From the IMG/VR virus record IMGVR_UViG_3300026484_000402, positions 1-64,000 of that record: a DNA stretch of 64,000 bases; one strand, written 5' to 3'. Numbering within the stretch: position 1 is the first letter of the stretch; each line of letters begins with the position of its first letter. Shown in pieces: positions 1 through 26,176 of the stretch. Both the position numbers and the translations under genes were made by a program. The notes beneath the pieces are model-generated. The model had not been told where the DNA came from and did not search any database. It saw only the letters and a list, made by a program, of their open reading frames with translations. Source of the DNA: a virus.

Positions 1-73
1 TCAACCACAGCTTTCTGAACTCTATTACATCCATTATGTCTGATTCGACTTCTGTGAATAATTTATTTGTCAT
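1..73 (-). CDS. Hypothetical protein, runs off the window start (MTNKLFTEVESDIMDVIEFRKLWL...)
   Basis: ATG at 73 preceded by AGGAGGTG SD; open to the window edge. Confidence 0.6.
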   Translation of the reverse strand, partial: MTNKLFTEVESDIMDVIEFRKLWL

Positions 74-82
74 ATCACCTCC

Positions 83-322
83 TTATGGTATCCAGTATAA
101 AATATGGCCATCTTCATCGACATTAAAATTTTTTAAAGAGTCGATATATTTAAAATGAGGCCTCAACTGTTTTTTTATTTCTGTTTCATACTCGATAGAT
201 AACTCTAAATCTTCCACTACATCATTTTCAAGTTCAGAAATCAATTCATCATCTTGAACGTCCAACTCTATTTCTGTATAATAGAGACAAGGAATTGCAA
301 CTTTAATTTTTTTCTTTTCCAT
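83..322 (-). CDS. Small acidic hypothetical phage protein
   Basis: ORF with AAGGAGG SD. Confidence 0.75.
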   Translation of the reverse strand: MEKKKIKVAIPCLYYTEIELDVQDDELISELENDVVEDLELSIEYETEIKKQLRPHFKYIDSLKNFNVDEDGHILYWIP

Positions 323-945
323 TGAACCTCCTTTTAAATTTTTTACAACAGAATTAAAATATAGTCGTTTTTGCTATCTATCTCAAACGCTATTAAAAGA
401 AATCCCCCTTGTAAGTACCTACATAGCCGACACACATTAAAATTGCTTATACGGCTTTATTTTTAATTATTTGTTTCGTTAAGGGATAATTTTTTTTAAA
501 ACGCAAAATAAACATTTTTTTACATTATTTTCGGTTATTGCCGTTTTTTAGGGGTTTAAACTGGTTTACTCGAAGAGAGTTATATTTTGGATAGATAATA
601 TTTATTCATTTTCCCAAAAAATCATACTTTTATAAATTAGAGTATTTTCTCCTGATGCTTCTTCTTAGCTCTTTTCAACCCCAACATTAAAAACATAGAG
701 AGTGAACTATATTTTCCTGTTGAAATTTAGGCGTTATATAAAGTTCATTTACAAGTTATTATACAATACCATTTGCCTAAAATACGGAACATCTAGGCGA
801 TAAAATAATATTTAGACATAAGGTAGTGAAAAAAATGTTGTTTTTCTTAGGTAAGTAGATAAAATTAACAGGAATTTTATATGTTTTTTTGGGGTATTTT
901 TGGAATTTTTATACATTTTTTTACACATAATTATCTTTTAATAGA

Positions 946-951
946 TATAAT
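946..951 (+). promoter_or_regulatory. Sigma70-type -10 (TATAAT) preceded by periodic T-tracts; would drive the 25-aa sORF
   Basis: TATAAT at 946-951 with T-tracts spaced roughly 10-11 bp over 875-940. Confidence 0.55.
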
Positions 952-990
952 GAAAAAATTTTATAAAAATACATTTATTTTTTAAGAGCT

Positions 991-1068
991 AAAAAGAAAA
1001 AAGAGGGAGAAAATATTCCTCAAGGAGAAAGAAAATGGGAAAAATCTCAATATTGTGCTTGCTGGGCA
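991..1068 (-). ncRNA. Putative ~75-80 nt antisense sRNA (cis to the 1035 sORF; trans-complementary to the rep RBS/start)
   Basis: Extended -10 TGATATAAT at 1074-1082 (minus strand); ends in GAGG...CCTC hairpin plus U6CU5; contains TTTTTCCCATTTTCTTTCTCCTT. Confidence 0.55.
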
Positions 1069-1112
1069 GTATTATTATATCATTATTTTTTCTTTGTGAC
1101 AAGATATGTTAG
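1035..1112 (+). CDS. 25-aa hydrophobic peptide MGKISILCLLGSIIISLFFLCDKIC, type I toxin-like
   Basis: AAGGAG SD at 1022-1027, ATG at 1035, TAG at 1110-1112; one TM-like stretch; below the ORF-track size cutoff. Confidence 0.5.
   Translation: MGKISILCLLGSIIISLFFLCDKIC
1074..1082 (-). promoter_or_regulatory. Extended -10 promoter TGATATAAT for the antisense sRNA
   Basis: Perfect TGnTATAAT with no protein gene immediately downstream. Confidence 0.55.
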
Positions 1113-1313
1113 ATGATATAATACAGCAAACCAACTTAATAATGAAGATATTAATAATACAATTATTGCTTCTTCCTTTGTTATACTCTCTCCGCTTTCT
1201 TCTCTTATTTCGTTAAGTATTTTTTCATATTCTTGATTAAATATAAACATCCCCAACAATATTGCAACTATCACTCCAACAATATAAACATTAAACATCA
1301 CCATCACCTCCAT
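1083..1313 (-). CDS. Small two-TM membrane protein
   Basis: Two hydrophobic segments; start may be a few codons downstream (GGAGGTG-ATG). Confidence 0.7.
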   Translation of the reverse strand: MEVMVMFNVYIVGVIVAILLGMFIFNQEYEKILNEIREESGESITKEEAIIVLLISSLLSWFAVLYHLTYLVTKKK

Positions 1314-1427
1314 CTTTTATTTTGTAATACATTTTTAACAACTTCAACAACCTAAGGTCACTTTTGTTGATTTCTTGTATATTTTGTTTGCAAACTCTGC
1401 ACAAGCAATTACATCTACATTTTACTC

Positions 1428-1676
1428 CTACATATAAATTTCAATAACATCGGCTTCGTTCACCTTGGAAATATCCTCATTAGTTAAAACGCTAAGTAAA
1501 AAAGATTTTATTTTATCCTCTTCATTTTCCTCTTTAACAATTCTCATAATTAAGAAATTATCCCCAATAGGCACAAGTACAGAAAAAGAAATATCATTTT
1601 TTTCAGCGAGTTCAATAGCTTTAAATTTGTTTATGTTTTCTGGTAAATCAAAATCTACAGTCATATACATTTGCAC
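1428..1676 (-). CDS. Hypothetical protein
   Basis: AAGGAG SD; part of a tightly packed minus-strand operon. Confidence 0.7.
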   Translation of the reverse strand: MQMYMTVDFDLPENINKFKAIELAEKNDISFSVLVPIGDNFLIMRIVKEENEEDKIKSFLLSVLTNEDISKVNEADVIEIYM

Positions 1677-1679
1677 TCC

Positions 1680-1946
1680 TTATACATCAAGCCATGCTTG
1701 AATTATTTTTACATCATCTAATTCTTTTGGAGAATATTCTATACCATCTATAATCTTGTCGTCGTTACATTCCAAGTCCGACAACTCAAATTCAACATAT
1801 GGACCACTATCGGTTTCTCTTTCCATATAATTGCTGTGTTCCGTATTCTCCTCAAGAAACTTTTTTAAGCTCTCATAATCATCTTTGTCAATTACAAAAT
1901 ACGCCACTTTTGTTATAAAAGGTCTATATTTTTTATTTTCCATCAT
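1680..1946 (-). CDS. Hypothetical acidic protein
   Basis: Overlaps upstream gene (ATGA); SD present. Confidence 0.7.
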   Translation of the reverse strand: MMENKKYRPFITKVAYFVIDKDDYESLKKFLEENTEHSNYMERETDSGPYVEFELSDLECNDDKIIDGIEYSPKELDDVKIIQAWLDV

Positions 1947-2332
1947 AACTCCTTAAATAATGGTTTAGTTGTTGAAAGCTCTATAGCCCTGTCAATTATT
2001 TTTTCAGCATCACTCAAACGAATTATTTTAAATTGAAATTCTGACTTTATTTTTTTTAATTCATTCATAGCGATTTTCAACTTATTGTTGTCTTCAACCT
2101 CAATCACAATGTTCCCATTGTTAAAATCTACACTTACATATTTTCCGTCTTCAAACATTACAACTACATCTTCAACGCTTTTTGAAACCACATAAGAACC
2201 GTCTTTTATAAATTTCTTTAGATATTCTGTAGCAGCTAAAGAATTAAGTCTTGATAGGTCTATTTTCTTATCCGATAGGTATTTGTAGATTTCATTAAAA
2301 TCAAATTCTCCCTGATATTCTATTTTCGCCAT
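1943..2332 (-). CDS. Hypothetical protein
   Basis: Operon packing; GGAGG SD. Confidence 0.7.
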   Translation of the reverse strand: MAKIEYQGEFDFNEIYKYLSDKKIDLSRLNSLAATEYLKKFIKDGSYVVSKSVEDVVVMFEDGKYVSVDFNNGNIVIEVEDNNKLKIAMNELKKIKSEFQFKIIRLSDAEKIIDRAIELSTTKPLFKEL

Positions 2333-2333
2333 C

Positions 2334-2732
2334 TTACCTCCTGTTTTTCAAAAACTGTTTGGCTTCATCCAAGTCAGATAAAGACACAAGCTCTCCGTTC
2401 TTAACATAGAACCAGTGTCTCTTATCAACTTTTCTTCCGGTTTCAAGCCGTACTTCAATTACATCATTTTCAGAAATCTCTACATCCCAATCCTCTTTGT
2501 AAAACCTCTTTTTCTTACACCATTCCTTACCGTTTGACGGAACAAATTCCCTATCAACCTCATCACCACATAAAAACAACTTAGCTACATATGCAGGACC
2601 AAATTTAGGATAAAAACAACCATCAGTTTTAAAATGCACCCATTTATTTTCCCTCCTTCTCGCTAATTCTAGTTTGGCTTCATCTATTAACTGTTCAAGT
2701 TCCTCTTCTGTTAATAATTCAAGCTTTAACAT
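2334..2732 (-). CDS. Hypothetical phage protein
   Basis: Operon packing; N-terminal helix plus beta-rich domain. Confidence 0.7.
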   Translation of the reverse strand: MLKLELLTEEELEQLIDEAKLELARRRENKWVHFKTDGCFYPKFGPAYVAKLFLCGDEVDREFVPSNGKEWCKKKRFYKEDWDVEISENDVIEVRLETGRKVDKRHWFYVKNGELVSLSDLDEAKQFLKNRR

Positions 2733-3156
2733 CGAAAGTTCTTTTTTTTAACCTATCGTTAATCACTTTCCTAATATTTGCTTTCAACTCCTCACGCTCT
2801 TTTATTTCCTCGCATTTTTCCGTTACAGGCTCTAATTGTTTTTTTTCGGCCTTTCTTTTGATTTCATTTATTTCTTTATTAAGCTCTTGAACAGTTTTTA
2901 CTTTTTTATTTTTTTGATAACCCATCTCAACTAAAGCTTCTAAAAGTGCCTTGTTTGAAGCTTTAAGAGATTCCATCTCTCTTTGCATTTCAACCTTTTC
3001 TTTTAAAAGGTTTTGAGCCCTCCAATACCAATCTACTAACTTTTTTCTGTCCGATTCAATCTCTTCATTCTCCTTTTCCAGTTTTTTTATAACTTCAAGA
3101 GATTTGTTAAGTAGCTCTTCAAGCCAAGCGATTCTAGCTTTTAATTTTTTAGACAT
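2719..3156 (-). CDS. Coiled-coil hypothetical protein
   Basis: AAAGGAG SD; heptad-like E/K/L pattern. Confidence 0.7.
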   Translation of the reverse strand: MSKKLKARIAWLEELLNKSLEVIKKLEKENEEIESDRKKLVDWYWRAQNLLKEKVEMQREMESLKASNKALLEALVEMGYQKNKKVKTVQELNKEINEIKRKAEKKQLEPVTEKCEEIKEREELKANIRKVINDRLKKRTFDVKA

Positions 3157-3251
3157 AACATCTCCTTTTAATTTAGTTAACTAAACAACAAATTAAATTA
3201 AAATAGAAAAAAAAGAAAAAGGGTGCAGTGTTATTACCCAATTATATATAA

Positions 3252-3273
3252 CAGGAAAATAATATTTTTCCCG
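3252..3273 (-). terminator. Hairpin directly after the stop of 3274..3972
   Basis: Minus strand CGGGAAAA-ATATTA-TTTTCCTG. Confidence 0.4.
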
Positions 3274-3972
3274 TTACGCATAGACGCTTTGCAGTGATGG
3301 TCTTCTTTGTAAAGAAGGTCTTGTTTGTAAAGAAGGTTTTTTGCCTTGATTTCTTAAAATTGATTTTATTTCACTTAGAGCTTTATATTTTTCTTGAGCT
3401 CTTTGTGAGATTTCAGATAACTCGTTTTTCATTTTACTTAGTTGCGTTTTAGAATATCCGTTTAACGGCTGAGGCTGATTATATAATCTTGCTGCATGCC
3501 TATATTTTTCGTACATAGTTTTTCCGTTTGGATTTAAAGACTTCAAACTTTTGGGAGCTCCTCTTAAAGACTGTCTATTCATATAGTTTAAGACTTTGCC
3601 TGTCCCACTTAATTCATGTAATACACTTTGAAGTGCTGCTGTTTTTTTAAGCTTCCTGCTTTTTCTTTTTAAATAAGAATAACCTTTTTGTGCCCCTATT
3701 GTACCTACTACACCAAGCCCTATTCCTGCTCCAACTTTTTTTGCTGTCCCTTGAGATGCTTCTTGAGTAACTTTTTTAAGTTTGTTCTTATAACTAGAAA
3801 TCTCTTTTGAATGTCTCAATCTTTCTTTTCTCACAAGGTCTAACGCTATCTTTTTACCGTCATCATCCAAAAGCTCTATAGGGTTTTTAAGGTTTTCAGG
3901 TCTTGCAGCTTTTACTGCTTTGTATATTTTAAAAGGGTTTACTGTGAAAGCTTTTTTATATAGTCCACTCAT
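3274..3972 (-). CDS. Basic glycine-zipper protein with K-x-A sites, putative internal virion protein
   Basis: GAGIGLGVVGTIG segment; KKA and KTA sites; C-terminal PSLQ x3. Confidence 0.6.
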   Translation of the reverse strand: MSGLYKKAFTVNPFKIYKAVKAARPENLKNPIELLDDDGKKIALDLVRKERLRHSKEISSYKNKLKKVTQEASQGTAKKVGAGIGLGVVGTIGAQKGYSYLKRKSRKLKKTAALQSVLHELSGTGKVLNYMNRQSLRGAPKSLKSLNPNGKTMYEKYRHAARLYNQPQPLNGYSKTQLSKMKNELSEISQRAQEKYKALSEIKSILRNQGKKPSLQTRPSLQRRPSLQSVYA

Positions 3973-4000
3973 TTGCTTCCTTTATAAAACTGGAAATGGA

Positions 4001-4987
4001 CTATTTGTCCTTATTTCCAGCTACTGCTTTATACGCTCCATAACCAACTGTTCCAACTCCAGCTGCAGTTCCTCCTATAGCAAGCGCTTGTCTTTTTCTA
4101 ATATTTTTCAATGATTTTTTTGTATTTTCAACATCTTTTAATTTTGCATGATATTTTTCTTGGAATTTTCTGATTAATGGGTCTTTTTTATCACGACCAG
4201 TCTCTCTAAGTTTTTTAAATGCTGCTGTTCCATCTTGCTCACCAGTTAAGAGTTTTGCTCTGTTATACATAACTTTTTTTGCTGCTTCTAAATTGTTTGT
4301 TTCTTTTGATAATCTACTTTTTACTTTATCTGCTCCTTTTCCTGTTAAAGCAGATTTGTAAGAATTCCAAGCGCCTTTCACTCTTCTCTTAATAGCCTTC
4401 CCTGCAGCGCCTATCACTCTATCTGCTAATCGCACTTCATTTTCAGATATTTTGGCTTCTTTTATAAGAGCTAAAGCTTCTTCAGGCAATAATCCAGTTT
4501 CAGCATAAATAGCTTCCGCAACTTTTTCTGCAAATTCGAGGTGCTCATCAGTATATCCAAGAGCAACTGCTTCACTAGCAACTTTTTCATCTACACTTCC
4601 ATCATCGTAAATAGATGACGCAAGGACCATAGCATCTTCAAAAGGCATTCCAGCTTCTTCAACATATATAGCATATTCTGCAACTTTATCCATCAAATCC
4701 TCTGCTCCTGCTGAAATTTCTTCAGCAACCTTAATCATATCTTCATCAACTCCACCAAGAAATTCTGCAACTTCAACAAGTGCTGCACTTTGTTCTGGAG
4801 TTAGTTCGTTTTCTACAACGCTTGCAACTTTTTCATTAAGAACATTCCCTTGCTCATCAGTTAAAGCAAGTGTAACAAGACCTCCTATAGGGTCAACTCC
4901 ATATGCTTCCAAATAATCCATTGCTTCAGCGACTTTTTCAATCATGTCTTCAGTCTGATAACCAGCTAGTTTTAATAAATTAGCCAT
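4001..4987 (-). CDS. Acidic KVA-repeat N-terminal region plus basic glycine-zipper C-terminus; putative processed head/ejection protein
   Basis: 8 K-x-A sites in the first ~180 aa; C-terminal LAIGGTAAGVGTVGYGAY; shares a domain with 39607..40245. Confidence 0.65.
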   Translation of the reverse strand: MANLLKLAGYQTEDMIEKVAEAMDYLEAYGVDPIGGLVTLALTDEQGNVLNEKVASVVENELTPEQSAALVEVAEFLGGVDEDMIKVAEEISAGAEDLMDKVAEYAIYVEEAGMPFEDAMVLASSIYDDGSVDEKVASEAVALGYTDEHLEFAEKVAEAIYAETGLLPEEALALIKEAKISENEVRLADRVIGAAGKAIKRRVKGAWNSYKSALTGKGADKVKSRLSKETNNLEAAKKVMYNRAKLLTGEQDGTAAFKKLRETGRDKKDPLIRKFQEKYHAKLKDVENTKKSLKNIRKRQALAIGGTAAGVGTVGYGAYKAVAGNKDK

Positions 4988-5048
4988 TTATTCTCCTTTG
5001 TTAGTTTTTATTTTTCTAATTGTATTCTAAAAAAAAAATATTGTCAAA

Positions 5049-6800
5049 TTATTGTTGAACATTTCCGTTTTGAGATTGTGTTTTTTGTTTCTGGTCTAAA
5101 AATTCCATTCTCCATTTTACGACCGCATATAAAACAGGATTTTCTTTAGAAAGTTCATCAAGTTTTGATTTTCTAACTCCGTAATCCATATTTTGAAGCT
5201 GCTGAACATAAGTGTCTGCTTCTTGAATAATTGCCGTTTGATTTATATTCCATGCGGAAGAGTTTTCCATCATTGATTCTTGTTTTATTTTATCTTCAAG
5301 CGAAGTAGCTACATCCTGTTGATACCTTTGTAATTCTAATTGTCTTCTTATATCCTCTTTCTGTTCTTCCATCATTCTTTCTTGCTCTTTATGATAATCT
5401 AAATCAAAAAAGTCAAGCGCTGTATGTCCAGAAACTTTTCCTGCTTGAAGAAGATTTAACATATTTTGCTTATCAGCTACATCATCAATAAGTTTTATAG
5501 GAACTAATTTAACTTTAATTTGTTCTTTATTTATTCTATTAGCTATTTGTTTTATAATAAAATTAGCTACCTGTTCTAAGGATTTAGTTAATTCTATTAA
5601 TTGATTTTGTAAAACTCTAAGCGAAGCACCTGCTCCTGAATAACTTAAACCTCCTTTTACAAACTCAGGCGGGACTCCTATAGCCGTCATAATCATAGTT
5701 GAGTACGCATCTATCTCTTGAGATAATTCAAGGTTTTTACCTTCACCAAATAAATTTATAGGCTCTAGCGGAATTGGGAAAAACTTAATAGCAGTAGGGT
5801 CTTTTTTCCAGCTTTTAAGCAAAGATTCAACCTTGTTTTTTAAATCACTGCCACCCATATAATTGTATATAGGCTGTTGGTCAACCCCCTGAACTCTCGG
5901 AACTAATCCACGTAATGGAAGTATCATATCTGAATATATCTTTTCATTCATCTTTCTTAACAACAACAATGAAATCATATCAGGTATAGCTGAAGTAAGC
6001 ATAGGAATACCCCACGATGTATTAGTTGAATTGAATTTTCTATTTCTGACATGCAAAACACTTGATTCGTTAAATTTTATTTTTCCATTAGTAAGAGAAG
6101 CTATTATTATATCTCTTGGTAAATTAAACAGCTTATCTTTATTTCCGTTTTTTATAAGCTCTTTATCTGATTCTGACGGATTATAATATATTGTTTTGAC
6201 ACCGGTTATTTCATCTTCATATAAATCTATATTATTTACAGGCCAAGATATTATTTTCATTTTAGATAAATCTTCTATTGGCCTATCCGATATTGTAAAA
6301 ACTGTTTCTTTTTTACATGCAGGACAAGTTCCCAAAAACACAAGCTCCTTGTTTCTAACTTCCGGCACAAGTTTTACATCTTCAACGTTTCTTCTCTTAA
6401 ATTTAGTTTCGCAAAATGAACAAGTTATAGTTCTGTCTATTGGAAAATTAACTGAGATAAACTGGTTTGCATATAAAAGAAAATTAAATCCTATTTCTTT
6501 TAATCTTTCTATAATTCCAACTTCATCTTCTAAAATACTTTTCCAGCTTAAAGCATCATCTTGTGATAATTCAGTTAAATCATTTGACAAATAAGAAAGA
6601 CTTGTGATTGAGATTGAAGCCATTTTATCTAATGCCGACTGAACCATTGGAACATTAGCTGTAATAAAATTAACCCATTTAAACACTTCTTTTATATCAT
6701 TAGGTAACACATACTGATATATTGAAGATAAATAATTGTACTTCTTTAAAAAACTAGTATCATAAAATTCAGTGTTTATCTTTGTGAAAGATGGTGTCAT
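5049..6800 (-). CDS. Phage portal protein with Zn-ribbon insertion
   Basis: 583 aa; VLHVR...WGIPML and AIGVPPEFVKGGLSYSGA portal-like motifs; CSFC...CPAC insertion. Confidence 0.75.
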   Translation of the reverse strand: MTPSFTKINTEFYDTSFLKKYNYLSSIYQYVLPNDIKEVFKWVNFITANVPMVQSALDKMASISITSLSYLSNDLTELSQDDALSWKSILEDEVGIIERLKEIGFNFLLYANQFISVNFPIDRTITCSFCETKFKRRNVEDVKLVPEVRNKELVFLGTCPACKKETVFTISDRPIEDLSKMKIISWPVNNIDLYEDEITGVKTIYYNPSESDKELIKNGNKDKLFNLPRDIIIASLTNGKIKFNESSVLHVRNRKFNSTNTSWGIPMLTSAIPDMISLLLLRKMNEKIYSDMILPLRGLVPRVQGVDQQPIYNYMGGSDLKNKVESLLKSWKKDPTAIKFFPIPLEPINLFGEGKNLELSQEIDAYSTMIMTAIGVPPEFVKGGLSYSGAGASLRVLQNQLIELTKSLEQVANFIIKQIANRINKEQIKVKLVPIKLIDDVADKQNMLNLLQAGKVSGHTALDFFDLDYHKEQERMMEEQKEDIRRQLELQRYQQDVATSLEDKIKQESMMENSSAWNINQTAIIQEADTYVQQLQNMDYGVRKSKLDELSKENPVLYAVVKWRMEFLDQKQKTQSQNGNVQQ

Positions 6801-6829
6801 TTCCGTCCTTTGTGTTTTCTTATTTTAAC

Positions 6830-6838
6830 ATTATATCA
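6830..6838 (-). promoter_or_regulatory. Extended -10 TGATATAAT upstream of the portal gene
   Basis: Perfect TGnTATAAT ~30 nt before the ATG, with AAAGG SD. Confidence 0.6.
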
Positions 6839-7606
6839 GTTTTCAATGTTTTTTTCATCAATTTCGGCATTCTCTATATCCACATCTATTACATCTAACT
6901 GCAAATTCCATTGCTCTTTTTGTATAACTTCGTCATTAAGTTTAACAAGGTAATTTTTAATTTCATCAAACGTGTTTCCACCAGATGTTTGAGTTGAAGC
7001 TTTTTGAATGTCTAATGCCGCACTTATTAGCTGCTTACCGCTTCTTATATGATTTTCTACTTCATCGGGTTTAAGCATAAAACTCTTTTCAACATATTTA
7101 AAATACATATCCATAAAAGTTGCTTTCATTACATCGTCTATAGCTATTTGTGATGTATTCAAAGCAAATTTCCATTCTATATATTTATAACCAAACGTAT
7201 GAGCGCTTTTAAGTATTACTCCAAGTTCTCTAAACTTTTCATTATCATGATAAATCAATTGTTTAAAAAAATTAATTTTCCCAAATACGCCTCTAAATTT
7301 TTTTACATTAAAAAAAAACATCTCAAATAATTCAATTGCTCTTACAGAAACTCCCATATATTCAGCTATTTTATCATAGGGAGCATTTGTAAAAAGCATT
7401 GATGCAACAAACATAAAATTCAAACTGTTTTCTTCTAAATATAAAATTTCATCAGCTATTTTAGATATTTTAACTGGTTTTTTTTTATTTTTAGGACATT
7501 TTATTGAAGCTATTTCTTTATAGTATTTAAGAGCTTTTTTTTGAACAACAATTCCATCTTTAATACAATAATTTTCATCAAACGCACTAATTTCTGGTAC
7601 TATCAA
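6836..7606 (-). CDS. HTH-containing protein upstream of portal (possible small terminase-like protein)
   Basis: YDKIAEYMGVSVRAIELF HTH-like segment; gene position. Confidence 0.4.
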   Translation of the reverse strand: MIVPEISAFDENYCIKDGIVVQKKALKYYKEIASIKCPKNKKKPVKISKIADEILYLEENSLNFMFVASMLFTNAPYDKIAEYMGVSVRAIELFEMFFFNVKKFRGVFGKINFFKQLIYHDNEKFRELGVILKSAHTFGYKYIEWKFALNTSQIAIDDVMKATFMDMYFKYVEKSFMLKPDEVENHIRSGKQLISAALDIQKASTQTSGGNTFDEIKNYLVKLNDEVIQKEQWNLQLDVIDVDIENAEIDEKNIEN

Positions 7607-7629
7607 ATAAAACGCCTTCTTTTTGGGTA

Positions 7630-7638
7630 ATTATAACA
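7630..7638 (-). promoter_or_regulatory. Extended -10 TGTTATAAT
   Basis: Upstream of the 7606 TTG start; flanked by CCT9G / CAAAAAGAAGG arms. Confidence 0.55.
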
Positions 7639-7741
7639 AAAAAAAAGGAATCAGCGAATTTTCGAGAGGAACAAGAGTTTTTTTCTATTTGCCTAAGCAT
7701 AAAATATTGTAAACGCTTTCTTGTTTAAAATGAAAGGCATT

Positions 7742-10234
7742 CTATATGCCTTCCAAATTAATTATAAAATCAGTCATTTTCTTAGATAACGCTTTTCCTT
7801 TATTTAAAAACGATGACAACATTCCATCACTAACACTATCAAGCATTTTATGGTAATTGCTATCTATAATCATAAGAACTCTAACCATGCCATTTACTCC
7901 ATCTTTAAGTTGCTCTATATAACTTTTTATAACTGCAACAGGCGTGTCAAGAGTTGCTAAATAACTTATAATAGCAGATTCTAAAACTTTTTTATCTGCT
8001 ATCTCTTTCAACTGTTCAAGCATCTCAGGGTCTATATTTTGTACCATAAAACCATTTTCATCCACTTCTGGAGTTTGCATATTATCATCAGCTTGATTAA
8101 CCTGCTGTTGAGCGCCTATGTCACCCTGTTGTTGCGCTTGAGGCATATCTTGCTGAGTTTGAGCATTAGGTTCTTGTTGCGCTTGAGGTATACCTTGCTG
8201 AATTTGAGCATTAGGTTCTTGTTGCGCTTGCTGCATTTGTTGTTCTTGTGGTTGGGCTCCCTGGGTTTGAGCAACATAATTATCAAGCTGAACTAGTAAA
8301 TCATCTAATGATAAACCTTGTTGTTGAGCAGCTTGAATTAACTGATTTGGGTCTTGCCCTATTTGTTGACACAATTCATTTATTTTATTTATTTTTTCTT
8401 GTTCATTAGGTTGAGCTTGTTGTTGGACCTGATTGTTGACATCAATATTTTGTTCTTCTTCAGATGGTTGTTGTCCAGCAATAGCTCCGGCGGTAGCAAA
8501 TTGTTGCAACGTTGAAGTTTGAATATCAATCGATTGTTTCATTTGAGCTATTAACATCATAAGTTGTTGCATTGTAAGTTGTTGCTGTTGAGCCATTTGA
8601 ATTAATTGCGCTATTTGTTCATTAAGTTGATATAACGGAGTAACAGTATCCGGTTGCTTTGCTGCTTCTTTAATTATTTTACATATTTCTTCTTCTTTAT
8701 AACCCTCGTTTGCAAGCTTAATAACAAAACCTTCTTTTGAATAAAATTCTCCATTGTATTCAATTTTCCCATCTCTTCTTTGAGTTACTTCTGCTGTTTT
8801 TGTAAGCATAAAATTGTTAATATCTTCACTTCTAAAAAAGTCGCATCTATTTCTTGAACAACTAAAAGCTTCTTCTTTCACAAAAAACGCATTATTTTTA
8901 GGTATATACAAAATATCATTATTTCTAATAATTCTTGTAATTTCATTATCAGGAACGACAACTATCTGTTTAATCGGACCAAAAGATTGTTCTATAACAA
9001 TTCTTCCATTTTTTAATTTAATTAATTCTCCAAACAAATATCTTATATAAGAAATTTCATTACCATTGTTGATTAATAAAAACCCACTTTTTTCAGAACT
9101 TGGATTTTCGTCAATCCATTTTTTTATATGGAGTTTTATAACAGAGCTTATACTCATACCGTATTCATCTTTTTTTATACCCATAATAGGATTATCACTT
9201 TTACCAGAGGTTACACAAACTTTTTCAGAAGACAACATCATCTTTTTATCTTCTCCAAACTTTGAAGCAACAATATACGTATATGGGTTTAATTCTTTGT
9301 CAAATAAAGTATATACACCAGAATCCGATACCTCAGTCAAATTTTTAAGAAACGACTCTTTAACTAAATCTTTAAGAGTAGGAGAATTAACTTCTGCAAC
9401 TTTGGTCAATACATCAGAATTTTTTATATAAAAACCTTGTGTTGCTATTTTTTTAAATGCTTTTTCTCTCTCATATTCAGGCAATGTTTTTATTTCGTCT
9501 TTTGTAAAATACACAACTGGTTTTTTATTTGCTGAAGCGACTTTTGAAATGTCAGACAATTTAGCATATCTTTCGATTTCTGAATAATCAGATACCATTT
9601 CAATCATTTTTTTTATATTTTCATTTTTAGAAGCTATTTTAACAATACTTTTTGCAAACTCTTTATCTTTAAAAGCCATATCACTCAACATTGATGATTC
9701 GTTATTTGAAGCAGTCTTATTAATTCCAGGAAGGCCGATTTGTTTGAACTTAAGAGTTTTGAAACCGCTTAAAACATCATCAAAATTTATTTCTTTAGAA
9801 AAATTATTGGATGCAACTTTAGGAGAGTATGTCATAGGTGTAGCAAATAAGCTCCCTATAATTCCTTTATCTATAGCTATCTCCCCTTCCTTATTTTTCA
9901 TATCTTCTTTTGTCAAAACCTGACCTATTGAATTTGAAATAGAATTGACAAGCTTGTTATATAAAAGTTTTGTAAGAGCATAATACCTACCAGTATTATC
10001 GTAACCTATATACGACACACAATCTACATTTCCATCTCTATAAATTATCGGAATAGTTAAATCTATTCCTGAAATAAGTAATTTAAAAGAACCTAAAGCT
10101 TCCGAACCATCTGGATTTATTTCATCCAGGCTATATTTAACAATAAATTGAGCAAAAGCTGGATAATTTGAAATAAGTTGTGAATAAGCTTCATCCAATA
10201 TGTTTTGTTTCATTACATTAATTTTAACGCCCAT
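7742..10234 (-). CDS. Large head-associated (core/scaffold-like) protein with K-x-A sites and Gln-rich region
   Basis: 830 aa; at least 9 K-x-A sites; long Q-rich low-complexity tract; near portal. Confidence 0.55.
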   Translation of the reverse strand: MGVKINVMKQNILDEAYSQLISNYPAFAQFIVKYSLDEINPDGSEALGSFKLLISGIDLTIPIIYRDGNVDCVSYIGYDNTGRYYALTKLLYNKLVNSISNSIGQVLTKEDMKNKEGEIAIDKGIIGSLFATPMTYSPKVASNNFSKEINFDDVLSGFKTLKFKQIGLPGINKTASNNESSMLSDMAFKDKEFAKSIVKIASKNENIKKMIEMVSDYSEIERYAKLSDISKVASANKKPVVYFTKDEIKTLPEYEREKAFKKIATQGFYIKNSDVLTKVAEVNSPTLKDLVKESFLKNLTEVSDSGVYTLFDKELNPYTYIVASKFGEDKKMMLSSEKVCVTSGKSDNPIMGIKKDEYGMSISSVIKLHIKKWIDENPSSEKSGFLLINNGNEISYIRYLFGELIKLKNGRIVIEQSFGPIKQIVVVPDNEITRIIRNNDILYIPKNNAFFVKEEAFSCSRNRCDFFRSEDINNFMLTKTAEVTQRRDGKIEYNGEFYSKEGFVIKLANEGYKEEEICKIIKEAAKQPDTVTPLYQLNEQIAQLIQMAQQQQLTMQQLMMLIAQMKQSIDIQTSTLQQFATAGAIAGQQPSEEEQNIDVNNQVQQQAQPNEQEKINKINELCQQIGQDPNQLIQAAQQQGLSLDDLLVQLDNYVAQTQGAQPQEQQMQQAQQEPNAQIQQGIPQAQQEPNAQTQQDMPQAQQQGDIGAQQQVNQADDNMQTPEVDENGFMVQNIDPEMLEQLKEIADKKVLESAIISYLATLDTPVAVIKSYIEQLKDGVNGMVRVLMIIDSNYHKMLDSVSDGMLSSFLNKGKALSKKMTDFIINLEGI
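8129..8230. repeat. 45-bp tandem repeat (~2.3 copies) encoding QAQQEPNAQxQQxxP
   Basis: GTTGCGCTTG at 8131, 8176 and 8221. Confidence 0.85.
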
Positions 10235-10256
10235 TACATTTCCTTGTTTTTAATGA

Positions 10257-10265
10257 ATTATAACA
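10257..10265 (-). promoter_or_regulatory. Extended -10 TGTTATAAT
   Basis: Upstream of the 10234 ATG with AAGGA SD. Confidence 0.6.
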
Positions 10266-10281
10266 AAGTATTGAGATTTTG

Positions 10282-10488
10282 TTAAATATTTATTTCTTTA
10301 ATATCTCTTCCAACAGATGAGATATTAACCGATAATGCTACTTTTCCATCATATGACAACACTTGATTATTAACAAAAGGACAAAGGTTAAATATGACCG
10401 CTTTTTTTTGCTCTTTGAAATAATTATCAATATCTTCGCTTTTAAGTGATACTTGACTAACAGGGATTCCTTTTATTTGTTCAGCCAT
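10282..10488 (-). CDS. Hypothetical protein
   Basis: AAAGGAG SD. Confidence 0.6.
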   Translation of the reverse strand: MAEQIKGIPVSQVSLKSEDIDNYFKEQKKAVIFNLCPFVNNQVLSYDGKVALSVNISSVGRDIKEINI

Positions 10489-10537
10489 AGTTTCTCCTTT
10501 TTTTCAAATAATATCATTATTATAAATAAAAGTGAAG

Positions 10538-10744
10538 CTAAGATAGAAGTTGTCTAAAATATTCATCGTTTTGTTTTATTATATAAAAATCTATTTTTAC
10601 ATTTTCTCCTATTTTGTTATACAGTTCTTTTATATATTGTTTTGCTTTTTTCTTAGTTTTAAAAATTGCGACAACTTCTTTTTCATTATAGACATTTTCA
10701 ACATAAACGACATATATTCTTTTAAAATCTGTTTCAATTAACAA
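10538..10744 (-). CDS. Small hypothetical phage protein coupled to rep
   Basis: Overlaps the rep stop; IYVVY...VAIFKTKKKAKQY pattern common in small phage proteins. Confidence 0.6.
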   Translation of the reverse strand: MLIETDFKRIYVVYVENVYNEKEVVAIFKTKKKAKQYIKELYNKIGENVKIDFYIIKQNDEYFRQLLS

Positions 10745-11799
10745 TTTTCATCCATTACTTTTATGATTTTAGAATTAAGTTCAGTAAATTTGTTAACATC
10801 AATTTTGTATAAATCAAAATAGCATCTACCCTCTTTAAGAAAGTTATAATAATCTTCTATCTTTTTTGCAAACATATATACGTTATTATAAATTTCCATA
10901 CTTTCATCTGAATCTATGTAAACTTCTTCACCGTTTGTTGTTTTAGCAAAAATTTTACCATTAACATCTATTCCATACCATACAACTTTGTTATTAAGTT
11001 TACCGACAATAAAATATTTACCAGTACCAGAATATGTTTCACGTAAAAATCTTACAAAATTTTTAATATTTTTAACTTCAGGCTTATCATACCTGTTTTT
11101 TTTATTATCGGTTACATAAAATACAACATTATACACTCTATTTCCATCTGTTTCAGTTTTATATGTAACGTATATATCAGTGTGTTGATTTATTTCTTTT
11201 ATAGCTGGTTCTAATAATCTTCTTTTAATATCATAAAAATCATACTTATCAGAACACATGAAAAAATCTCTAAGTTCATCTATAGAATACGATATTTCTC
11301 TTTTATATTTTTTTTGTATTTCATATTTGTTTTTTAATTCTTCAAAAAGCCTTAATGAATATGGTTTTCTTAAATTTTTCATATTTTTTATATGATATTT
11401 AAGATAATTATTTTTATACTCTATCAATATAGACAACATATCTTTGTCTATATAAAATACTATGTCTTGTCTTTTTTTATATATAACTTTATCTACAAAA
11501 TGTAAAAACATTTCTTCATTGCCATTTTTAATTATTATAACTTTTGACATTAATTCTTTTATTGCTTTTTTAATTTGTTTATATATTACACTTATATCTT
11601 TGTCAAAAAGACTAAACAATTCATCTTTTTTTATAGAATAAATATAGACATCTTCTTCAGTTTTTGTAACAACTATGTTTAATAGCTGAATTGCATAAAT
11701 AGACAAGTCATATTTACTCTTCATTATTATTGAACTTTTTTTTATGCTAAATTCTTCATCTAGCTCAATTACTACAATATCATCTTTATTTTTTCCCAT
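10738..11799 (-). CDS. rep: Plasmid replication initiator, Rep_3 (RepB/RepE-like winged helix)
   Basis: KSSIIMKSKYDLS, LRKPYSLRLFEEL, YSIDELRDFF and DIKRRLLEPAIKEINQHTDIYVTY Rep_3 motifs; adjacent iterons. Confidence 0.9.
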   Translation of the reverse strand: MGKNKDDIVVIELDEEFSIKKSSIIMKSKYDLSIYAIQLLNIVVTKTEEDVYIYSIKKDELFSLFDKDISVIYKQIKKAIKELMSKVIIIKNGNEEMFLHFVDKVIYKKRQDIVFYIDKDMLSILIEYKNNYLKYHIKNMKNLRKPYSLRLFEELKNKYEIQKKYKREISYSIDELRDFFMCSDKYDFYDIKRRLLEPAIKEINQHTDIYVTYKTETDGNRVYNVVFYVTDNKKNRYDKPEVKNIKNFVRFLRETYSGTGKYFIVGKLNNKVVWYGIDVNGKIFAKTTNGEEVYIDSDESMEIYNNVYMFAKKIEDYYNFLKEGRCYFDLYKIDVNKFTELNSKIIKVMDENC

Positions 11800-11890
11800 T
11801 TCTTTCTCCTTCTTTTATTGTATCTTATAATGTAACTATAATATGTAGAAATTTGAAACCTCGTAATCACGGTACTTCCAGCGATTTTTC

Positions 11891-12008
11891 ACCGACAACT
11901 TTGCCAATAAAACAGGGGGTTAAACCGACAACTTTGCCAATAAAAATCGATTTTCACCGACAACTTTGCCAAAATAAAACAGCAACACCGACAACTTTGC
12001 CAATAAAA
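11891..12008. repeat. Four iterons ACCGACAACTTTGCCAA (plasmid-type origin)
   Basis: Identical 17-bp core at 11891, 11924, 11956 and 11987 (33/32/31-bp phasing) upstream of rep, followed by an AT-rich tract. Confidence 0.9.
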
Positions 12009-12200
12009 TTTTACCACATTTTTAATGATTTAAGGGGATATTTTTTTGAGGAAAAAAAGCTTTAATTAAAGAAAGTACAAAAGCTCCAAGTTCTGGATAT
12101 TTTTAAGATTTTTATTTTTATTTTTTCAATTTTAAATTTCCTAATAAGGTAAGGAAATAAAACTGATTTTTAATTGTTGATTTACATATAAATTCATATC

Positions 12201-12216
12201 TGATATAATTATATCA
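12201..12216. promoter_or_regulatory. Perfect palindrome TGATATAATTATATCA giving an extended -10 on each strand
   Basis: 16-bp palindrome between ori and the 12247 gene. Confidence 0.55.
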
Positions 12217-12246
12217 AATTGATAATAAAAAAACAAAGGAGCTTAC

Positions 12247-12678
12247 ATGATAGCTTTAACATTACAATCAGCATTTAACTGGGATAAGGAAACAGCTAAT
12301 TTAATAGGTCACCTAGCGTCTACTTTATCTAAAGAATCTATAGGGTTAAGTGACATAGTTTCAGCTATAAAATCTAAAGATACAGACAATGATGTAACTA
12401 TAGCAGATAATTGGATTAAATATTTGCTAAATACTGTATTTAATGGAGTAAAAGAAAAAGCTTTATCTTTAACTTCGGACAGTAATGTAACAGATGTAAT
12501 CAATAAATTAGCCGACGATTTTAACCCAGTTATAAACGGAAAAGACTCGTCTTTTGGAAATATATTAGATATATTCATTGCTAAAGAATATTCATTCCAA
12601 GAATACGCAAATGCACTTATAGGTGAAGTAATGAAAGCTGACACATACTGGAAAGGTGTTATATGCGATAATAATTGA
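12247..12678 (+). CDS. Hypothetical protein adjacent to ori
   Basis: AAAGGAG SD; own promoter. Confidence 0.7.
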   Translation: MIALTLQSAFNWDKETANLIGHLASTLSKESIGLSDIVSAIKSKDTDNDVTIADNWIKYLLNTVFNGVKEKALSLTSDSNVTDVINKLADDFNPVINGKDSSFGNILDIFIAKEYSFQEYANALIGEVMKADTYWKGVICDNN

Positions 12679-12694
12679 GCGGATTAAACTCCGC
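12679..12694. terminator. Hairpin between convergent genes
   Basis: GCGGA-TTAAAC-TCCGC. Confidence 0.35.
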
Positions 12695-13595
12695 CCATTG
12701 TTATCATAATATTGCCTTCTTCATCTTTAATCATTTTAACAGAATCGCTAGGTATCTGGTCTTGAACAATATCTCTTCCTTCTTTATATTTGGCAAAGGC
12801 ATCAAAAACTTCTAAGTAACTTTTCGGGTTTGTATCGGTATGACTATATTTAGCCACTTTATCACTATAACCAGCTATTTCTACAAAAGTCTCTATTCCC
12901 ATTTTTACAAATTTAAAAGAGACTCTACCTATTCTTTCTTTTTTACCCTCACGATATTTAAATTTAACTCTATTATCTGAAATTTTTTCAATTATTTTTT
13001 CATCAGTTATATTATCTATTTGAGCGTTAAATGAGGGGTCAAAATAAATTTCAACAGATTCTATTTCTTTTATTTCTTCTTCATTATACGTTTCATCTTT
13101 TTGTTTCTCAGAAGCTGTTTTTTGCAGCTCATAATTGCTGTCAGAATTGTCATCCTGATTTTCTTCATTTTGTTCATCTTTTTGATTCTTGTCATTATCA
13201 ACAACTTTCATTGCTACTATTGACAAATTTTTCATAGCTTCAATTTGTTCATAAGATAAGTCTATTTTTATAGAATACGCAGATGGATTCAAAGAAAGTT
13301 CTTCATTGTTAGTTATAAATTTACCGTTTTTATAAGTTGCGATTATATATCTTTCATACGGAAATCTAAGTATTACCAAATTGCCATCATCTAATGCTTT
13401 ACCAAGTTTATCTGTAACGCTGTTAGGTTTAAGTGTAGACTTTGGAGAAGGTGTTCCGTTTATTATAATTCTTCCATCAACATCATATAATGCAATTTTA
13501 CCATCAAAATCAACCATTATAAAATTTTCATCCACAGAAAGCACTTTCCCAATACCTAAGAATTCACATTTTACTTCTTGTCCTTTTACAAACAT
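12684..13595 (-). CDS. Hypothetical protein with N-terminal Tudor/SH3-like domain
   Basis: FVKGQEVKCEFLGIGKVLSVDENFIMVDF resembles the UvrD/PcrA C-terminal Tudor pattern; acidic linker with a KTAS site. Confidence 0.55.
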   Translation of the reverse strand: MFVKGQEVKCEFLGIGKVLSVDENFIMVDFDGKIALYDVDGRIIINGTPSPKSTLKPNSVTDKLGKALDDGNLVILRFPYERYIIATYKNGKFITNNEELSLNPSAYSIKIDLSYEQIEAMKNLSIVAMKVVDNDKNQKDEQNEENQDDNSDSNYELQKTASEKQKDETYNEEEIKEIESVEIYFDPSFNAQIDNITDEKIIEKISDNRVKFKYREGKKERIGRVSFKFVKMGIETFVEIAGYSDKVAKYSHTDTNPKSYLEVFDAFAKYKEGRDIVQDQIPSDSVKMIKDEEGNIMITMGGV

Positions 13596-13605
13596 TAAAT
13601 CTCCT

Positions 13606-13800
13606 TTACCCTATTCTTTTAGTTCTTGTTGATATTCTAAATCCTGAATGTCCTCTAGTGCCTATTGACAATCTCATTTTTGCTTTTTCTGATGGGCTTC
13701 TTTTTCTTGATAAAAAACCATATCCTTCTTTTTCAAGAGGATTACATTCATTGTCAACTTCATATTTTAACATTTTTTGAGCAGAAATTTTATATAACAT
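13606..13800 (-). CDS. Small basic hypothetical protein
   Basis: AAAGGAG SD and TGTATAAT promoter upstream. Confidence 0.6.
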   Translation of the reverse strand: MLYKISAQKMLKYEVDNECNPLEKEGYGFLSRKRSPSEKAKMRLSIGTRGHSGFRISTRTKRIG

Positions 13801-13859
13801 TGTTTTTTCTCCTTTTTTTTGTTTTAATTATACAACAACTTTTTAAAAAGGTCTAAAGT

Positions 13860-25194: not shown

Positions 25195-25208
25195 TTCTCT
25201 CTCCTTAA

Positions 25209-26156
25209 TTATTTATTTTCAACCGGTTCATAAACAATATCTTCTTCTTCACTTATTTCATATTCAACAATAGATTGCGCTTTCCCAACCAAATGGTCCG
25301 GCAATTTGGCTGTTGTTGTTAATTTTAATTTATCTATAAGTTCCTCAGGGATGTCTTTCTTGGATACTTTTACATATCCCTTTTTCAGTTCATATTCAAC
25401 TCCCATATCATCCAAAGCCATCTGTAAGGTAACTTTTTTTTCGACTTCTTGATTTAATTCTTCTATAGCCTCATAAGTGCTGTCTACTTTTTCACTTTTT
25501 TCAATTTCATCAATTGTTGCATAATTTTCATTGTCTATCTCTGTAGCGTATCTTAATGATTCTGGGACAGGAATCATTTTAACCAATCTTTTTAACGGGA
25601 CTTTTTTCGCTACTTCATCAAACCAAGTATCCCATACAGTATGTTTTCCTTTTGATTTGATTTTAGCTGCTTTCCGAGCCTCATTTAATTCATTTAAATT
25701 AGCAGTAGCAATTACAACTTCTCCGCTTGGTAAAACGCCTCTTGCATAGGCACCTATAACCCTATTGTCAGTATTAAATGGATTAACAGTATGTTTTATT
25801 TCAGTTTTTCCATTGTCAATATTTATTTGAAAGTTTTCACCCTCTCTTACTACATATGCATCCACTAATTTAAAAACCCCATATTCAATAAGTTTTTTGG
25901 GCCAAAATGTATATTTTTGTTCAATTTTAATTGTTCCATTGTACACTATAATATAAATATCATCTACAGCTGACAATTCTGGGTCTGCTGTGATAATTTT
26001 AAGTATAGTATTTAAAACAGCTTCTTTAGGTGGAATTTCTTTTTGATAGATTTTATTTAACAGTAATGAAAGTTTGTTTTTTTTTAAAGCATCAACTTTT
26101 AAATCAAGTTCTTTTACTATTTCTTCTACAGTTAATTTATTATTTCTTGCAGCCAT
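25209..26156 (-). CDS. recT: RecT-family single-strand annealing protein
   Basis: VVREGENF, VIGAYA, WDTWFDEVAKKVPLKRLVKMIP. Confidence 0.85.
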   Translation of the reverse strand: MAARNNKLTVEEIVKELDLKVDALKKNKLSLLLNKIYQKEIPPKEAVLNTILKIITADPELSAVDDIYIIVYNGTIKIEQKYTFWPKKLIEYGVFKLVDAYVVREGENFQINIDNGKTEIKHTVNPFNTDNRVIGAYARGVLPSGEVVIATANLNELNEARKAAKIKSKGKHTVWDTWFDEVAKKVPLKRLVKMIPVPESLRYATEIDNENYATIDEIEKSEKVDSTYEAIEELNQEVEKKVTLQMALDDMGVEYELKKGYVKVSKKDIPEELIDKLKLTTTAKLPDHLVGKAQSIVEYEISEEEDIVYEPVENK

Positions 26157-26176
26157 TTCTTTCTCCTTGTGTTTTT

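What the first reader, a model, noticed from the sequence alone, without database searches (positions are those of the whole stretch)
1022..1044. The same sRNA is complementary to the rep RBS and start codon 10.8 kb away: possible coupled addiction and replication control
Seen: plus strand 1022-1044 reads AAGGAGAAAGAAAATGGGAAAAA. The rep mRNA initiation region (minus strand of 11790-11811) reads AAGGAGAAAGAAATGGGAAAAA, identical except for one A. The minus-strand sRNA could therefore form a 22-bp duplex (one bulge) over the rep SD and AUG. Inference: one RNA represses both a toxin peptide in cis and the plasmid initiator in trans; read-through from the early operon could also silence Rep on lytic induction. 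Iteron replicons are normally controlled by handcuffing and autorepression, and known antisense copy-control RNAs are encoded in cis, so I know of no described equivalent. Caveat: the sequence is purine-rich and includes an SD, which inflates chance similarity.
Basis: partly seen in the sequence, partly recalled or inferred. Interest (0 to 1): 0.85.

Follow-up and report, generated by a model that had tools for sequence, protein, structure and literature searches.

The report
Two look-alike ribosome-binding sites, link unproven
The start region of a tiny gene, which an opposite-strand RNA would cover, is almost letter-for-letter the same as the start region of the element's plasmid replication gene 10.8 kb away, but this most likely reflects two strong ribosome-binding sites of a type common in this phage rather than a shown regulatory link.

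Summary
Plus strand 1022-1044 and the rep start region (minus strand 11811-11790) share 22 bases with one extra A.

A strong minus-strand promoter (1102-1074) is conserved. It is one of only four of that quality in 80 kb. Its RNA would be antisense to the small ORF's start region and could pair with rep mRNA (-30 kcal/mol). With accessibility included, rep ranks first of 98 starts in this element.

Both sites are consensus start regions (AAGGAG, purine spacer, ATG). Unrelated start-site pairs in the same genome match as well or nearly as well.

Only one relative holding both loci could be read (G001, 176 kb). There the rep site has an uncompensated mismatch and bulge, and rep ranks 2nd to 7th of 261 depending on the method. 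G001's RNA would pair better with this element's rep than with its own.

Two positions do change together (GG/AA) at both sites. Such parallel changes occur in about 1.5% of random start-site pairs.

The RNA has no predicted stable fold and no convincing terminator here. The peptide's reading frame is not conserved, and no RNA data exist.

My odds: coincidence about 0.5, real trans control about 0.25.

The parts
1022..1044 (+). Start region of the small ORF: SD AAGGAG, spacer AAAGAAA, ATG, then GGA AAA A. This is the stretch the finding reported.
   Evidence: The 13-nt block AAGGAGAAAGAAA is identical in G001, and with the ATG that follows G001 reads AAGGAGAAAGAAATG, one A fewer than here. The flanks have diverged.
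1035..1112 (+). 25-codon ORF, MGKISILCLLGSIIISLFFLCDKIC.
   Evidence: No Pfam family. The G001 counterpart is MKKLFLSTAAVAGQHYYIIIFSL; a 7-nt indel puts its 3' half in another frame.
1074..1102 (-). Sigma-70-type promoter TTGTCA-17-TGnTATAAT, with a predicted start near 1067.
   Evidence: 11 of 12 matches, with TG. It is one of 4 such sites in 80 kb against 0.45 expected, and all four are conserved in synteny in G001. The block is 100% identical in G001.
990..1067 (-). Predicted antisense transcript. The 3' end is uncertain. Bases 1044-1022 would pair with the rep start region.
   Evidence: Inferred from the promoter. The fold is weak (-7.1 kcal/mol, z +0.9). The consensus structure with G001 is -0.9 kcal/mol. 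No Rfam match.
1003..1021 (.). Short inverted repeat followed, on the minus strand, by a T-run. It is a possible weak terminator.
   Evidence: -3.9 kcal/mol here (z 0) and -9.1 kcal/mol in G001. One A:T to G:C double change keeps a pair. The terminator scan did not call it.
922..951 (+). Candidate promoter for the small-ORF mRNA (TACACA-18-TATAAT).
   Evidence: 10 of 12 matches. It is weaker in G001 (TAAAAT, poor -35).
1094..1122 (+). Second promoter-like site. It diverges from the minus-strand promoter and shares a palindromic -35 (TTGTGACAA).
   Evidence: 10 of 12 matches, with TG. Kept in G001 as TTGTGA-17-TACAAT.
11790..11811 (-). rep start region AAGGAGAAAGAAATGGGAAAAA, the proposed trans target.
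   Evidence: Predicted to be unstructured. In G001 it reads AAGGAGATGAAATGAAAAAAA.
10738..11799 (-). rep, a Rep_3-family initiator of 353 aa.
   Evidence: Pfam Rep3_N 8.7e-18 and Rep3_C 7.6e-18. Only two close relatives are known.
11886..12008 (.). Four iterons (core CCGACAACTTTGCCAA) spaced 31-33 bp apart, upstream of rep.
   Evidence: Conserved in G001.
26153..26168 (-). Start region of the RecT-like gene, AAGGAGAAAGAAATGG. It is the second-best predicted partner of the antisense RNA.
   Evidence: -23.8 and -15.4 kcal/mol. PHROG RecT-like.

Best explanation
Bases 1022-1044 are the ribosome-binding site, start codon and first codons of a 25-codon ORF. The ORF lies in a 760-bp conserved non-coding region. 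A strong, conserved promoter on the opposite strand (1102-1074, start near 1067) reads across it, so any regulation by that RNA is most simply in cis.

The near-identity to the rep start region is, most likely, a coincidence between two strong, purine-rich start regions. Both follow a design this AT-rich phage reuses: AAGGAG, an A/G-rich spacer, ATG, then G/A-rich codons. An RNA antisense to a consensus Shine-Dalgarno site is automatically complementary to other consensus sites.

Shown: the sequences, the quality and conservation of the promoter, and the pairing energies. Inferred: that the RNA is made, that it acts in cis, and that pairing with rep has no dedicated function.
For: - About a third of the genes carry AAGGAG at the right distance, and several spacers recur 2-3 times.
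- rep, recT and recE share AAGGAGA(A/G)AGAAATGG.
- Unrelated start-region pairs score 21.5 and 19.5 in this element. Five pairs score 20 or more in G001.
- In G001, rep falls to rank 7 of 261 by identity and rank 6 by duplex energy (-22.2 kcal/mol). Five unrelated genes pair as well or better.
- The fall from 20 to 15.5 is the same regression seen for other high-scoring pairs, whose mean in G001 is 13.3.
- G001's antisense core pairs better with this element's rep (-27.4) than with its own (-22.2).
- The recE/recT pair gains identity in G001 (16.5 to 21.5) through two substitutions, with no antisense RNA involved.
- The RNA is unstructured and lacks a convincing terminator.
Against: - In this element rep stands alone. 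It scores -30.2 kcal/mol against -23.8 for the next start region, or -24.6 against -15.4 with accessibility included. None of 358 other start regions reaches -25.
- With accessibility included, rep is still 2nd of 261 in G001.
- Positions +4 and +5 read GG at both sites here and AA at both sites in G001.
- The third known Rep (P0011) lies near the ancestor of the other two and has Lys at codon 2. The GG in rep is therefore a derived double change that raised the match.
- Random drift reproduces the observed pairing in 0.1% of trials or fewer in three of four scenarios.
Confidence: 0.5

Rival explanations
1. The minus-strand RNA from the 1102-1074 promoter really does regulate in trans. Besides covering the small ORF's start region in cis, it pairs with the SD and AUG of rep mRNA and lowers Rep translation. 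It may do the same at the recT and recE start regions, which share the 15-nt core. This would tie replication control to the level of one RNA.
For: - The duplex is 22 bp with one bulge, at -30.2 kcal/mol. rep ranks 1st of 98 here and 2nd of 261 in G001 with accessibility included.
- Both partners are predicted to be unstructured.
- The promoter is one of the four best in the element and is conserved.
- GG/AA changes together at both sites. Given that AA is ancestral in rep, this fits a path through G.U pairs: -22.2, then -27.4, then -30.2 kcal/mol.
- No strong antisense promoter lies opposite the rep leader.
- Distant-acting antisense RNAs exist in phage-plasmids: P1/P7 c4 (PMC12197685) and P4 CI (PMC4825925).
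Against: - In G001 the centre of the duplex carries an uncompensated mismatch and bulge. Other genes pair as well or better by identity and by duplex energy.
- G001's RNA prefers the foreign rep to its own.
- Parallel double changes occur in 43 of 2850 random start-region pairs, and both of these sites are unusually variable (13 and 16 variable positions against a median of 4).
- The RNA lacks the stem-loops and terminator typical of antisense regulators.
- Only one relative could be compared.
Confidence: 0.25
2. The identity was made by DNA, not selected at the RNA level. A short-patch gene conversion or templated mutation copied one start region onto the other in this lineage. The element encodes RecT-like and RecE-like recombination proteins. 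The match would then have no regulatory meaning.
For: - All four differences between this rep start region and G001's (T to A, +A, and two A to G) go towards the small ORF's sequence, within 12 nt. Identity stops abruptly on both sides.
- The change at codon 2 of rep is the only two-base replacement among 10 on this branch.
- The recE/recT start regions show the same kind of homogenisation in G001.
- RecT-like and exonuclease VIII-like genes are present.
Against: - The sites are 10.8 kb apart, inverted, and share very little homology to start from.
- The extra A at 1022-1044 is not shared.
- Nothing tests this directly, because the direction of change at the small ORF and in the rep spacer is unknown.
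Confidence: 0.1
3. This reading does not exclude those above. The minus-strand transcript may not be a discrete ~78-nt sRNA. It could be the long untranslated leader of the next minus-strand operon (the 79-aa gene at 322-83 and beyond), or a promoter-proximal read-through RNA. The small plus-strand ORF would then be an incidental open frame.
For: - No minus-strand terminator was called between 1067 and 500. The hairpin at 1021-1003 is -3.9 kcal/mol.
- The whole 760-bp spacer is conserved in blocks.
- No conserved minus-strand ORF lies in it.
- The plus-strand peptide's frame is not conserved.
Against: - The SD and ATG of the small ORF are perfectly conserved at proper spacing in both genomes.
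- G001 has a better hairpin followed by a T-run (-9.1 kcal/mol).
Confidence: 0.3

Closest known systems
P1/P7 c4 antisense RNA (immunity region of a phage-plasmid)
   Same: A small phage-encoded RNA pairs with short complementary stretches around the ribosome-binding site of a target that it does not overlap, and blocks translation. Regulator and target differ together between heteroimmune relatives (PMC12197685).
   Different: c4 targets the antirepressor operon, not a replication initiator. It presents its pairing sequences in structured loops. The RNA here is predicted to be unstructured, and co-variation rests on two positions in one relative.
P4 CI RNA
   Same: In a phage-plasmid, an RNA keeps the element's own replication genes off by pairing with complementary sites elsewhere (PMC4825925).
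   Different: CI RNA is processed from the same transcript and causes premature transcription termination at seqA and seqC. Here the proposed action is occlusion of the SD and AUG of a Rep_3 gene 10.8 kb away.
Counter-transcribed copy-control RNAs (pT181 RNAI, pMV158 RNAII, pSK41 RNAI)
   Same: An antisense RNA complementary to the rep leader or start region lowers Rep synthesis (PMC5703833).
   Different: Those RNAs are encoded opposite the rep leader itself and are structured. Here no strong antisense promoter lies at rep, and the RNA is encoded 10.8 kb away. That review describes copy control of the Rep_3 plasmid family (pSK639) as not yet studied in detail.
Type I toxin-antitoxin loci with a cis-encoded antitoxin RNA (for example SprA2/SprA2AS)
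   Same: A short hydrophobic ORF has its start region covered by an antisense RNA from a strong promoter. Some cis-encoded antitoxins are described as acting in trans (abstract of PMC6393315).
   Different: The peptide is not conserved in frame in the relative. The RNA has no stable fold. Toxicity is untested.
PrpT/PrpA (a type II TA system whose antitoxin controls plasmid copy number)
   Same: This is a precedent for coupling an addiction module to replication control of an iteron plasmid (PMC7848731).
   Different: PrpA is a protein that binds the iterons. Here the coupling would be RNA-RNA pairing at the rep start region.

Membership tests
Rep_3 iteron replicon | Initiator with Rep3_N (WH1) and Rep3_C (WH2) domains | tested here: met
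   Pfam E = 8.7e-18 and 7.6e-18, above the curated cut-offs.
Rep_3 iteron replicon | Tandem direct repeats (iterons) next to rep | tested here: met
   Four copies at 11886-12008, spaced 31-33 bp. Conserved in G001.
Counter-transcribed antisense copy-control RNA | RNA complementary to the rep leader or start region | tested here: met
   22 bp with one bulge, -30.2 kcal/mol.
Counter-transcribed antisense copy-control RNA | Encoded in cis, opposite the rep leader | tested here: not met
   The RNA's promoter is 10.8 kb from rep. Only chance-level antisense promoter matches lie near the rep 5' end.
Counter-transcribed antisense copy-control RNA | Stable stem-loops that present the recognition sequence, plus an intrinsic terminator | tested here: not met
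   MFE -7.1 kcal/mol for 84 nt, z +0.9. Consensus fold -0.9 kcal/mol. Hairpin -3.9 kcal/mol.
Type I toxin-antitoxin | Short hydrophobic ORF with its own SD | tested here: met
   25-aa peptide with AAGGAG 7 nt upstream.
Type I toxin-antitoxin | Peptide conserved in relatives | tested here: not met
   A 7-nt indel shifts the frame. The G001 peptide is unrelated in its second half.
Type I toxin-antitoxin | Antisense RNA promoter overlapping the toxin mRNA | tested here: met
   TTGTCA-17-TGnTATAAT at 1102-1074, conserved.
Type I toxin-antitoxin | The peptide is toxic and the RNA neutralises it | not testable with these tools
   Needs expression assays.
Trans-acting phage antisense RNA (c4 / CI type) | Regulator and target co-vary between relatives | tested here: inconclusive
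   GG/AA changes together at +4 and +5, but a spacer change in rep is not compensated. Parallel changes occur in 1.5% of random pairs. Only one relative was available.
Trans-acting phage antisense RNA (c4 / CI type) | The RNA is expressed | not testable with these tools
   No RNA run holds the sequence.

The most novel reading that the evidence does not exclude
One unstructured RNA from a strong constitutive promoter covers the start region of a small membrane-peptide ORF in cis. Through the same 22 nt it also blocks translation of the Rep_3 initiator 10.8 kb away, and possibly of recT and recE, which share the 15-nt core. The level of a single RNA would then set both replication and the fate of cells that lose the element. 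The GG/AA change at both sites would be a specificity switch between related phage-plasmids.
Probability: 0.22. Interest if true: 0.75.

Novelty: new member of a known kind. Interest (0 to 1): 0.32.

Why it matters
If the pairing were functional, it would be the first case I know of in which an iteron-type (Rep_3) initiator is controlled by an antisense RNA encoded far from rep and shared with a toxin-like ORF. It would also show that large vent phage-plasmids use RNA to sense copy number.

As the evidence stands, the value is cautionary. An RNA antisense to a consensus Shine-Dalgarno site will look complementary to other strong start sites in an AT-rich genome, so such matches need a start-region-specific null and several relatives before they are read as regulation.

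A cheap decisive test exists. At least two more sequence variants of this element sit in public vent metagenomes.

Tried and rejected
- **Public phage and plasmid records.** Megablast of 1-14000 found no match.
- **Rfam.** Nothing at gathering thresholds over the window. Permissive thresholds over 250-1400 gave only noise.
- **More relatives.** The searches were: the Rep protein and Rep alignment in viral, metagenome and genome contigs; the promoter block in all three collections; the iteron pair; the 2-TM protein, the 830-aa protein and the 583-aa protein. Together they returned only G001.
- **G002.** The 79-aa protein search also found G002, a 161-kb phage. It lacks rep and the whole small-ORF region, so it gave no information.
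- **The look-up of encoding contigs.** The 12.9-kb contig encoding the third Rep variant (P0011) could not be read.
- **Sequencing runs.** No RNA holder was listed.
- **Read laying.** Run X2 matches the window exactly. Run X5 holds a third variant (44 differences over 11255-11900, against 73 for G001). The output did not list letters at either site, and no listed X5 contig piece spans 1022-1044.
- **Second copy of the module.** None in either genome.
- **PHROGs.** No function for the genes between the two sites.
- **Failed or empty calls.** One drift simulation timed out and was rerun smaller. The relatives look-up gave only a note on head proteins of G001.
- **Rejected idea.** The spacer AAAGAA is not specially enriched; other spacers recur as often.

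Full report
**What the window is**

The window is the first 64 kb of an 80,340-bp IMG/VR viral contig (29% G+C, CheckV completeness 43%) from hydrothermal-vent metagenomes. It has no near relative among public phage or plasmid records.

- Plus strand 1022-1044 reads AAGGAGAAAGAAAATGGGAAAAA. The minus strand of 11790-11811 reads AAGGAGAAAGAAATGGGAAAAA.
- The first site is the Shine-Dalgarno site, start codon and codons 2-3 of a 25-codon ORF, MGKISILCLLGSIIISLFFLCDKIC.
- The second site is the same part of a 353-aa gene with Rep3_N and Rep3_C domains. Four iterons lie upstream of it at 11886-12008.

**The antisense RNA is plausible, but its form is uncertain**

- On the minus strand, TTGTCA-17-TGnTATAAT (1102-1074) matches the consensus at 11 of 12 positions with an extended -10.
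- Only four sites of that quality exist on either strand of the 80-kb contig, against 0.45 expected in shuffles. All four recur at syntenic places in the relative G001.
- A transcript starting near 1067 would carry the complement of 1022-1044 at about +24 to +46.
- Its 3' end is not defined. The hairpin at 1021-1003 is four pairs and -3.9 kcal/mol, no better than shuffles. In G001 it is -9.1 kcal/mol, with one A:T to G:C double change.
- The terminator scan calls nothing on that strand.
- The 84-nt stretch folds less well than shuffled sequence. The consensus fold with G001 is -0.9 kcal/mol. No Rfam family matches.
- The RNA lies in a 760-bp spacer between a 2-TM protein gene (1083-1313) and a 79-aa gene (83-322). 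The spacer is conserved in blocks and holds no conserved minus-strand ORF. A long leader is therefore as likely as a discrete sRNA.

**The small ORF is weak as a gene**

G001 keeps the SD and ATG exactly. A 7-nt indel puts the second half in another frame, giving MKKLFLSTAAVAGQHYYIIIFSL. Hydrophobicity is cheap on a T-rich strand.

**How special the match is in this element**

- Against whole-sequence shuffles it is unique. That null is wrong for two ribosome-binding sites.
- I called 98 genes roughly and compared all start regions (-20 to +15). The rep/small-ORF pair scores 20 and ranks second of 4851 pairs. Unrelated pairs score 21.5 and 19.5.
- About a third of genes carry AAGGAG, and 18% carry AAGGAGA. 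Spacers recur. ATGGGA begins 4% of genes.
- rep, recT and recE share AAGGAGA(A/G)AGAAATGG.
- As a pairing partner of the antisense core, rep scores -30.2 kcal/mol. recT scores -23.8 and recE -23.3 (mean -11, sd 4.8).
- With opening energies included, rep scores -24.6 and recT -15.4.
- None of G001's 261 start regions reaches -25 with this core.
I estimate that a match of this quality to some gene arises by chance with p of about 0.01-0.03.

**The one relative**

- Every search for relatives returned only G001 (IMGVR_UViG_3300028534_000013, 176,653 bp, complete; Rep 94% identical).
- A second phage, G002, shares the 79-aa gene but lacks both rep and the small-ORF region.
- In G001 the small-ORF site reads AAGGAGAAAGAAATGAAAAAA and the rep site reads AAGGAGATGAAATGAAAAAAA.
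- Two things happened. The GG at +4/+5 is AA at both sites. The rep spacer differs (AAAG against ATG) with no matching change in the RNA.
- The duplex drops to -22.2 kcal/mol.
- rep ranks 7th of 261 by identity, 6th by duplex energy, and 2nd when accessibility is included.
- G001's core would pair better with this element's rep (-27.4, through G.U pairs) than with its own. This element's core pairs poorly with G001's rep (-14.9).

**Is the joint GG/AA change meaningful?**

- A third Rep (P0011, protein only) differs from the other two by 12 and 13 residues, with only two unique changes, so it sits near their common ancestor. It has Lys at codon 2. The Gly (GGA) here is therefore a derived two-base change that increased the match.
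- Random drift of the observed amount reproduces the observed pairing in 0.1% of trials or fewer in three of four scenarios. In the fourth it does so in 35% of trials, because of G.U tolerance.
- Across 2850 pairs of orthologous start regions, 43 pairs (1.5%) show two or more positions that changed in parallel. rep and the small ORF are among the most variable start regions, with 13 and 16 variable positions against a median of 4.
- Rep codons 2-7 hold 4 of the 21 Rep differences.
- The score drop from 20 to 15.5 is the ordinary regression seen for other high-scoring pairs, whose mean in G001 is 13.3.
- The recE/recT pair moves the other way (16.5 to 21.5) through two substitutions towards identity, with no antisense RNA involved.
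- Start-region identity therefore rises and falls between these genomes in general.

**Weighing the readings**

- **Coincidence of two strong start regions, about 0.5.** This is the simplest reading.
- **Real trans repression of rep, possibly also of recT and recE, about 0.25.** It is thermodynamically easy and fits the logic of a copy-number-sensing RNA. It rests on one relative, in which the pairing is degraded.
- **Short templated conversion between the two sites, about 0.1.** It would explain why all four rep differences point towards the small-ORF sequence.
- Whether the RNA is a discrete sRNA or a leader is a separate open point.

**What is already known**

- Distant-acting antisense RNAs exist in phage-plasmids. 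P1/P7 c4 blocks the ant ribosome-binding site (PMC12197685). P4 CI RNA shuts off P4's own replication genes by pairing with seqA and seqC (PMC4825925).
- Antisense control of rep is standard for many Gram-positive plasmids, but there the RNA is encoded opposite the rep leader. Control of the staphylococcal Rep_3 plasmid family (pSK639) is described as not yet studied in detail (PMC5703833).
- A protein antitoxin, PrpA, controls copy number by binding iterons (PMC7848731).
- The proposed arrangement would therefore be a new variant rather than something without any equivalent.

**Limits**

- No RNA run holds the sequence.
- Read laying showed that further variants exist in runs X3 and X5, but it did not print their letters at the two sites.

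Noticed in passing
window 1074-1122: Two strong promoter-like sites face away from each other and share a palindromic -35 (TTGTGACAA). The plus-strand site (TTGTGA-17-TATAAT, with TG) would make an RNA antisense to the 3' part of the 2-TM protein gene at 1083-1313. Both sites are kept in G001.
   Followed up: partly
window 323-1082: A 760-bp spacer with no conserved ORF is conserved in blocks between this element and G001 (for example AACGCCTAAATT.CAACAGGAAAAT.TAGTTCACTCTC). It also has phased T-tracts at about 880-930. It may be a regulatory or origin-like region.
   Followed up: partly
window 12181-12209 (+), 10257-10285 (-), about 52499-52527 (-), 1074-1102 (-): Only four sites in 80 kb match the sigma-70 consensus at 11 of 12 positions with an extended -10. 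All four are conserved at syntenic places in G001. They probably mark the main host-polymerase transcription units.
   Followed up: partly
window 25192-25207 and 26153-26168; G001 55550-55565 and 56518-56533: The adjacent RecE-like and RecT-like genes have nearly the same start region (AAGGAGA(A/G)AGAAATGGCT). In G001 the two are identical over 20 nt. Start regions seem to be homogenised or convergently selected in this phage.
   Followed up: partly
window 11779-11799 (Rep codons 1-7): The first seven codons of Rep hold 4 of the 21 amino-acid differences between this element and G001. These include a two-base Lys to Gly change here and three adjacent changes in G001. It is a local hot spot in an otherwise 94% identical protein.
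   Followed up: partly
L016 (IMGVR_UViG_3300026382_000002, 161 kb, terminal repeats): A complete related phage shares the 79-aa gene (92% identity) and a few neighbours in a different order. It has no Rep_3 gene and no small-ORF region, so the plasmid replicon is not universal in this group.
   Followed up: partly
window 11255-11900 and 1429-4099, runs X5 and X3: Public vent metagenome runs hold contigs of at least one further variant, intermediate between this element and G001 (44 against 73 differences over 646 nt). These are the obvious material for a co-variation test.
   Followed up: no
window 12198-12219: There is a palindrome, ATCTGATATAAT / ATTATATCAAAT, at the -10 of the strong plus-strand promoter beside the iterons. 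It again shows two opposed extended -10 boxes, as at 1074-1122.
   Followed up: no
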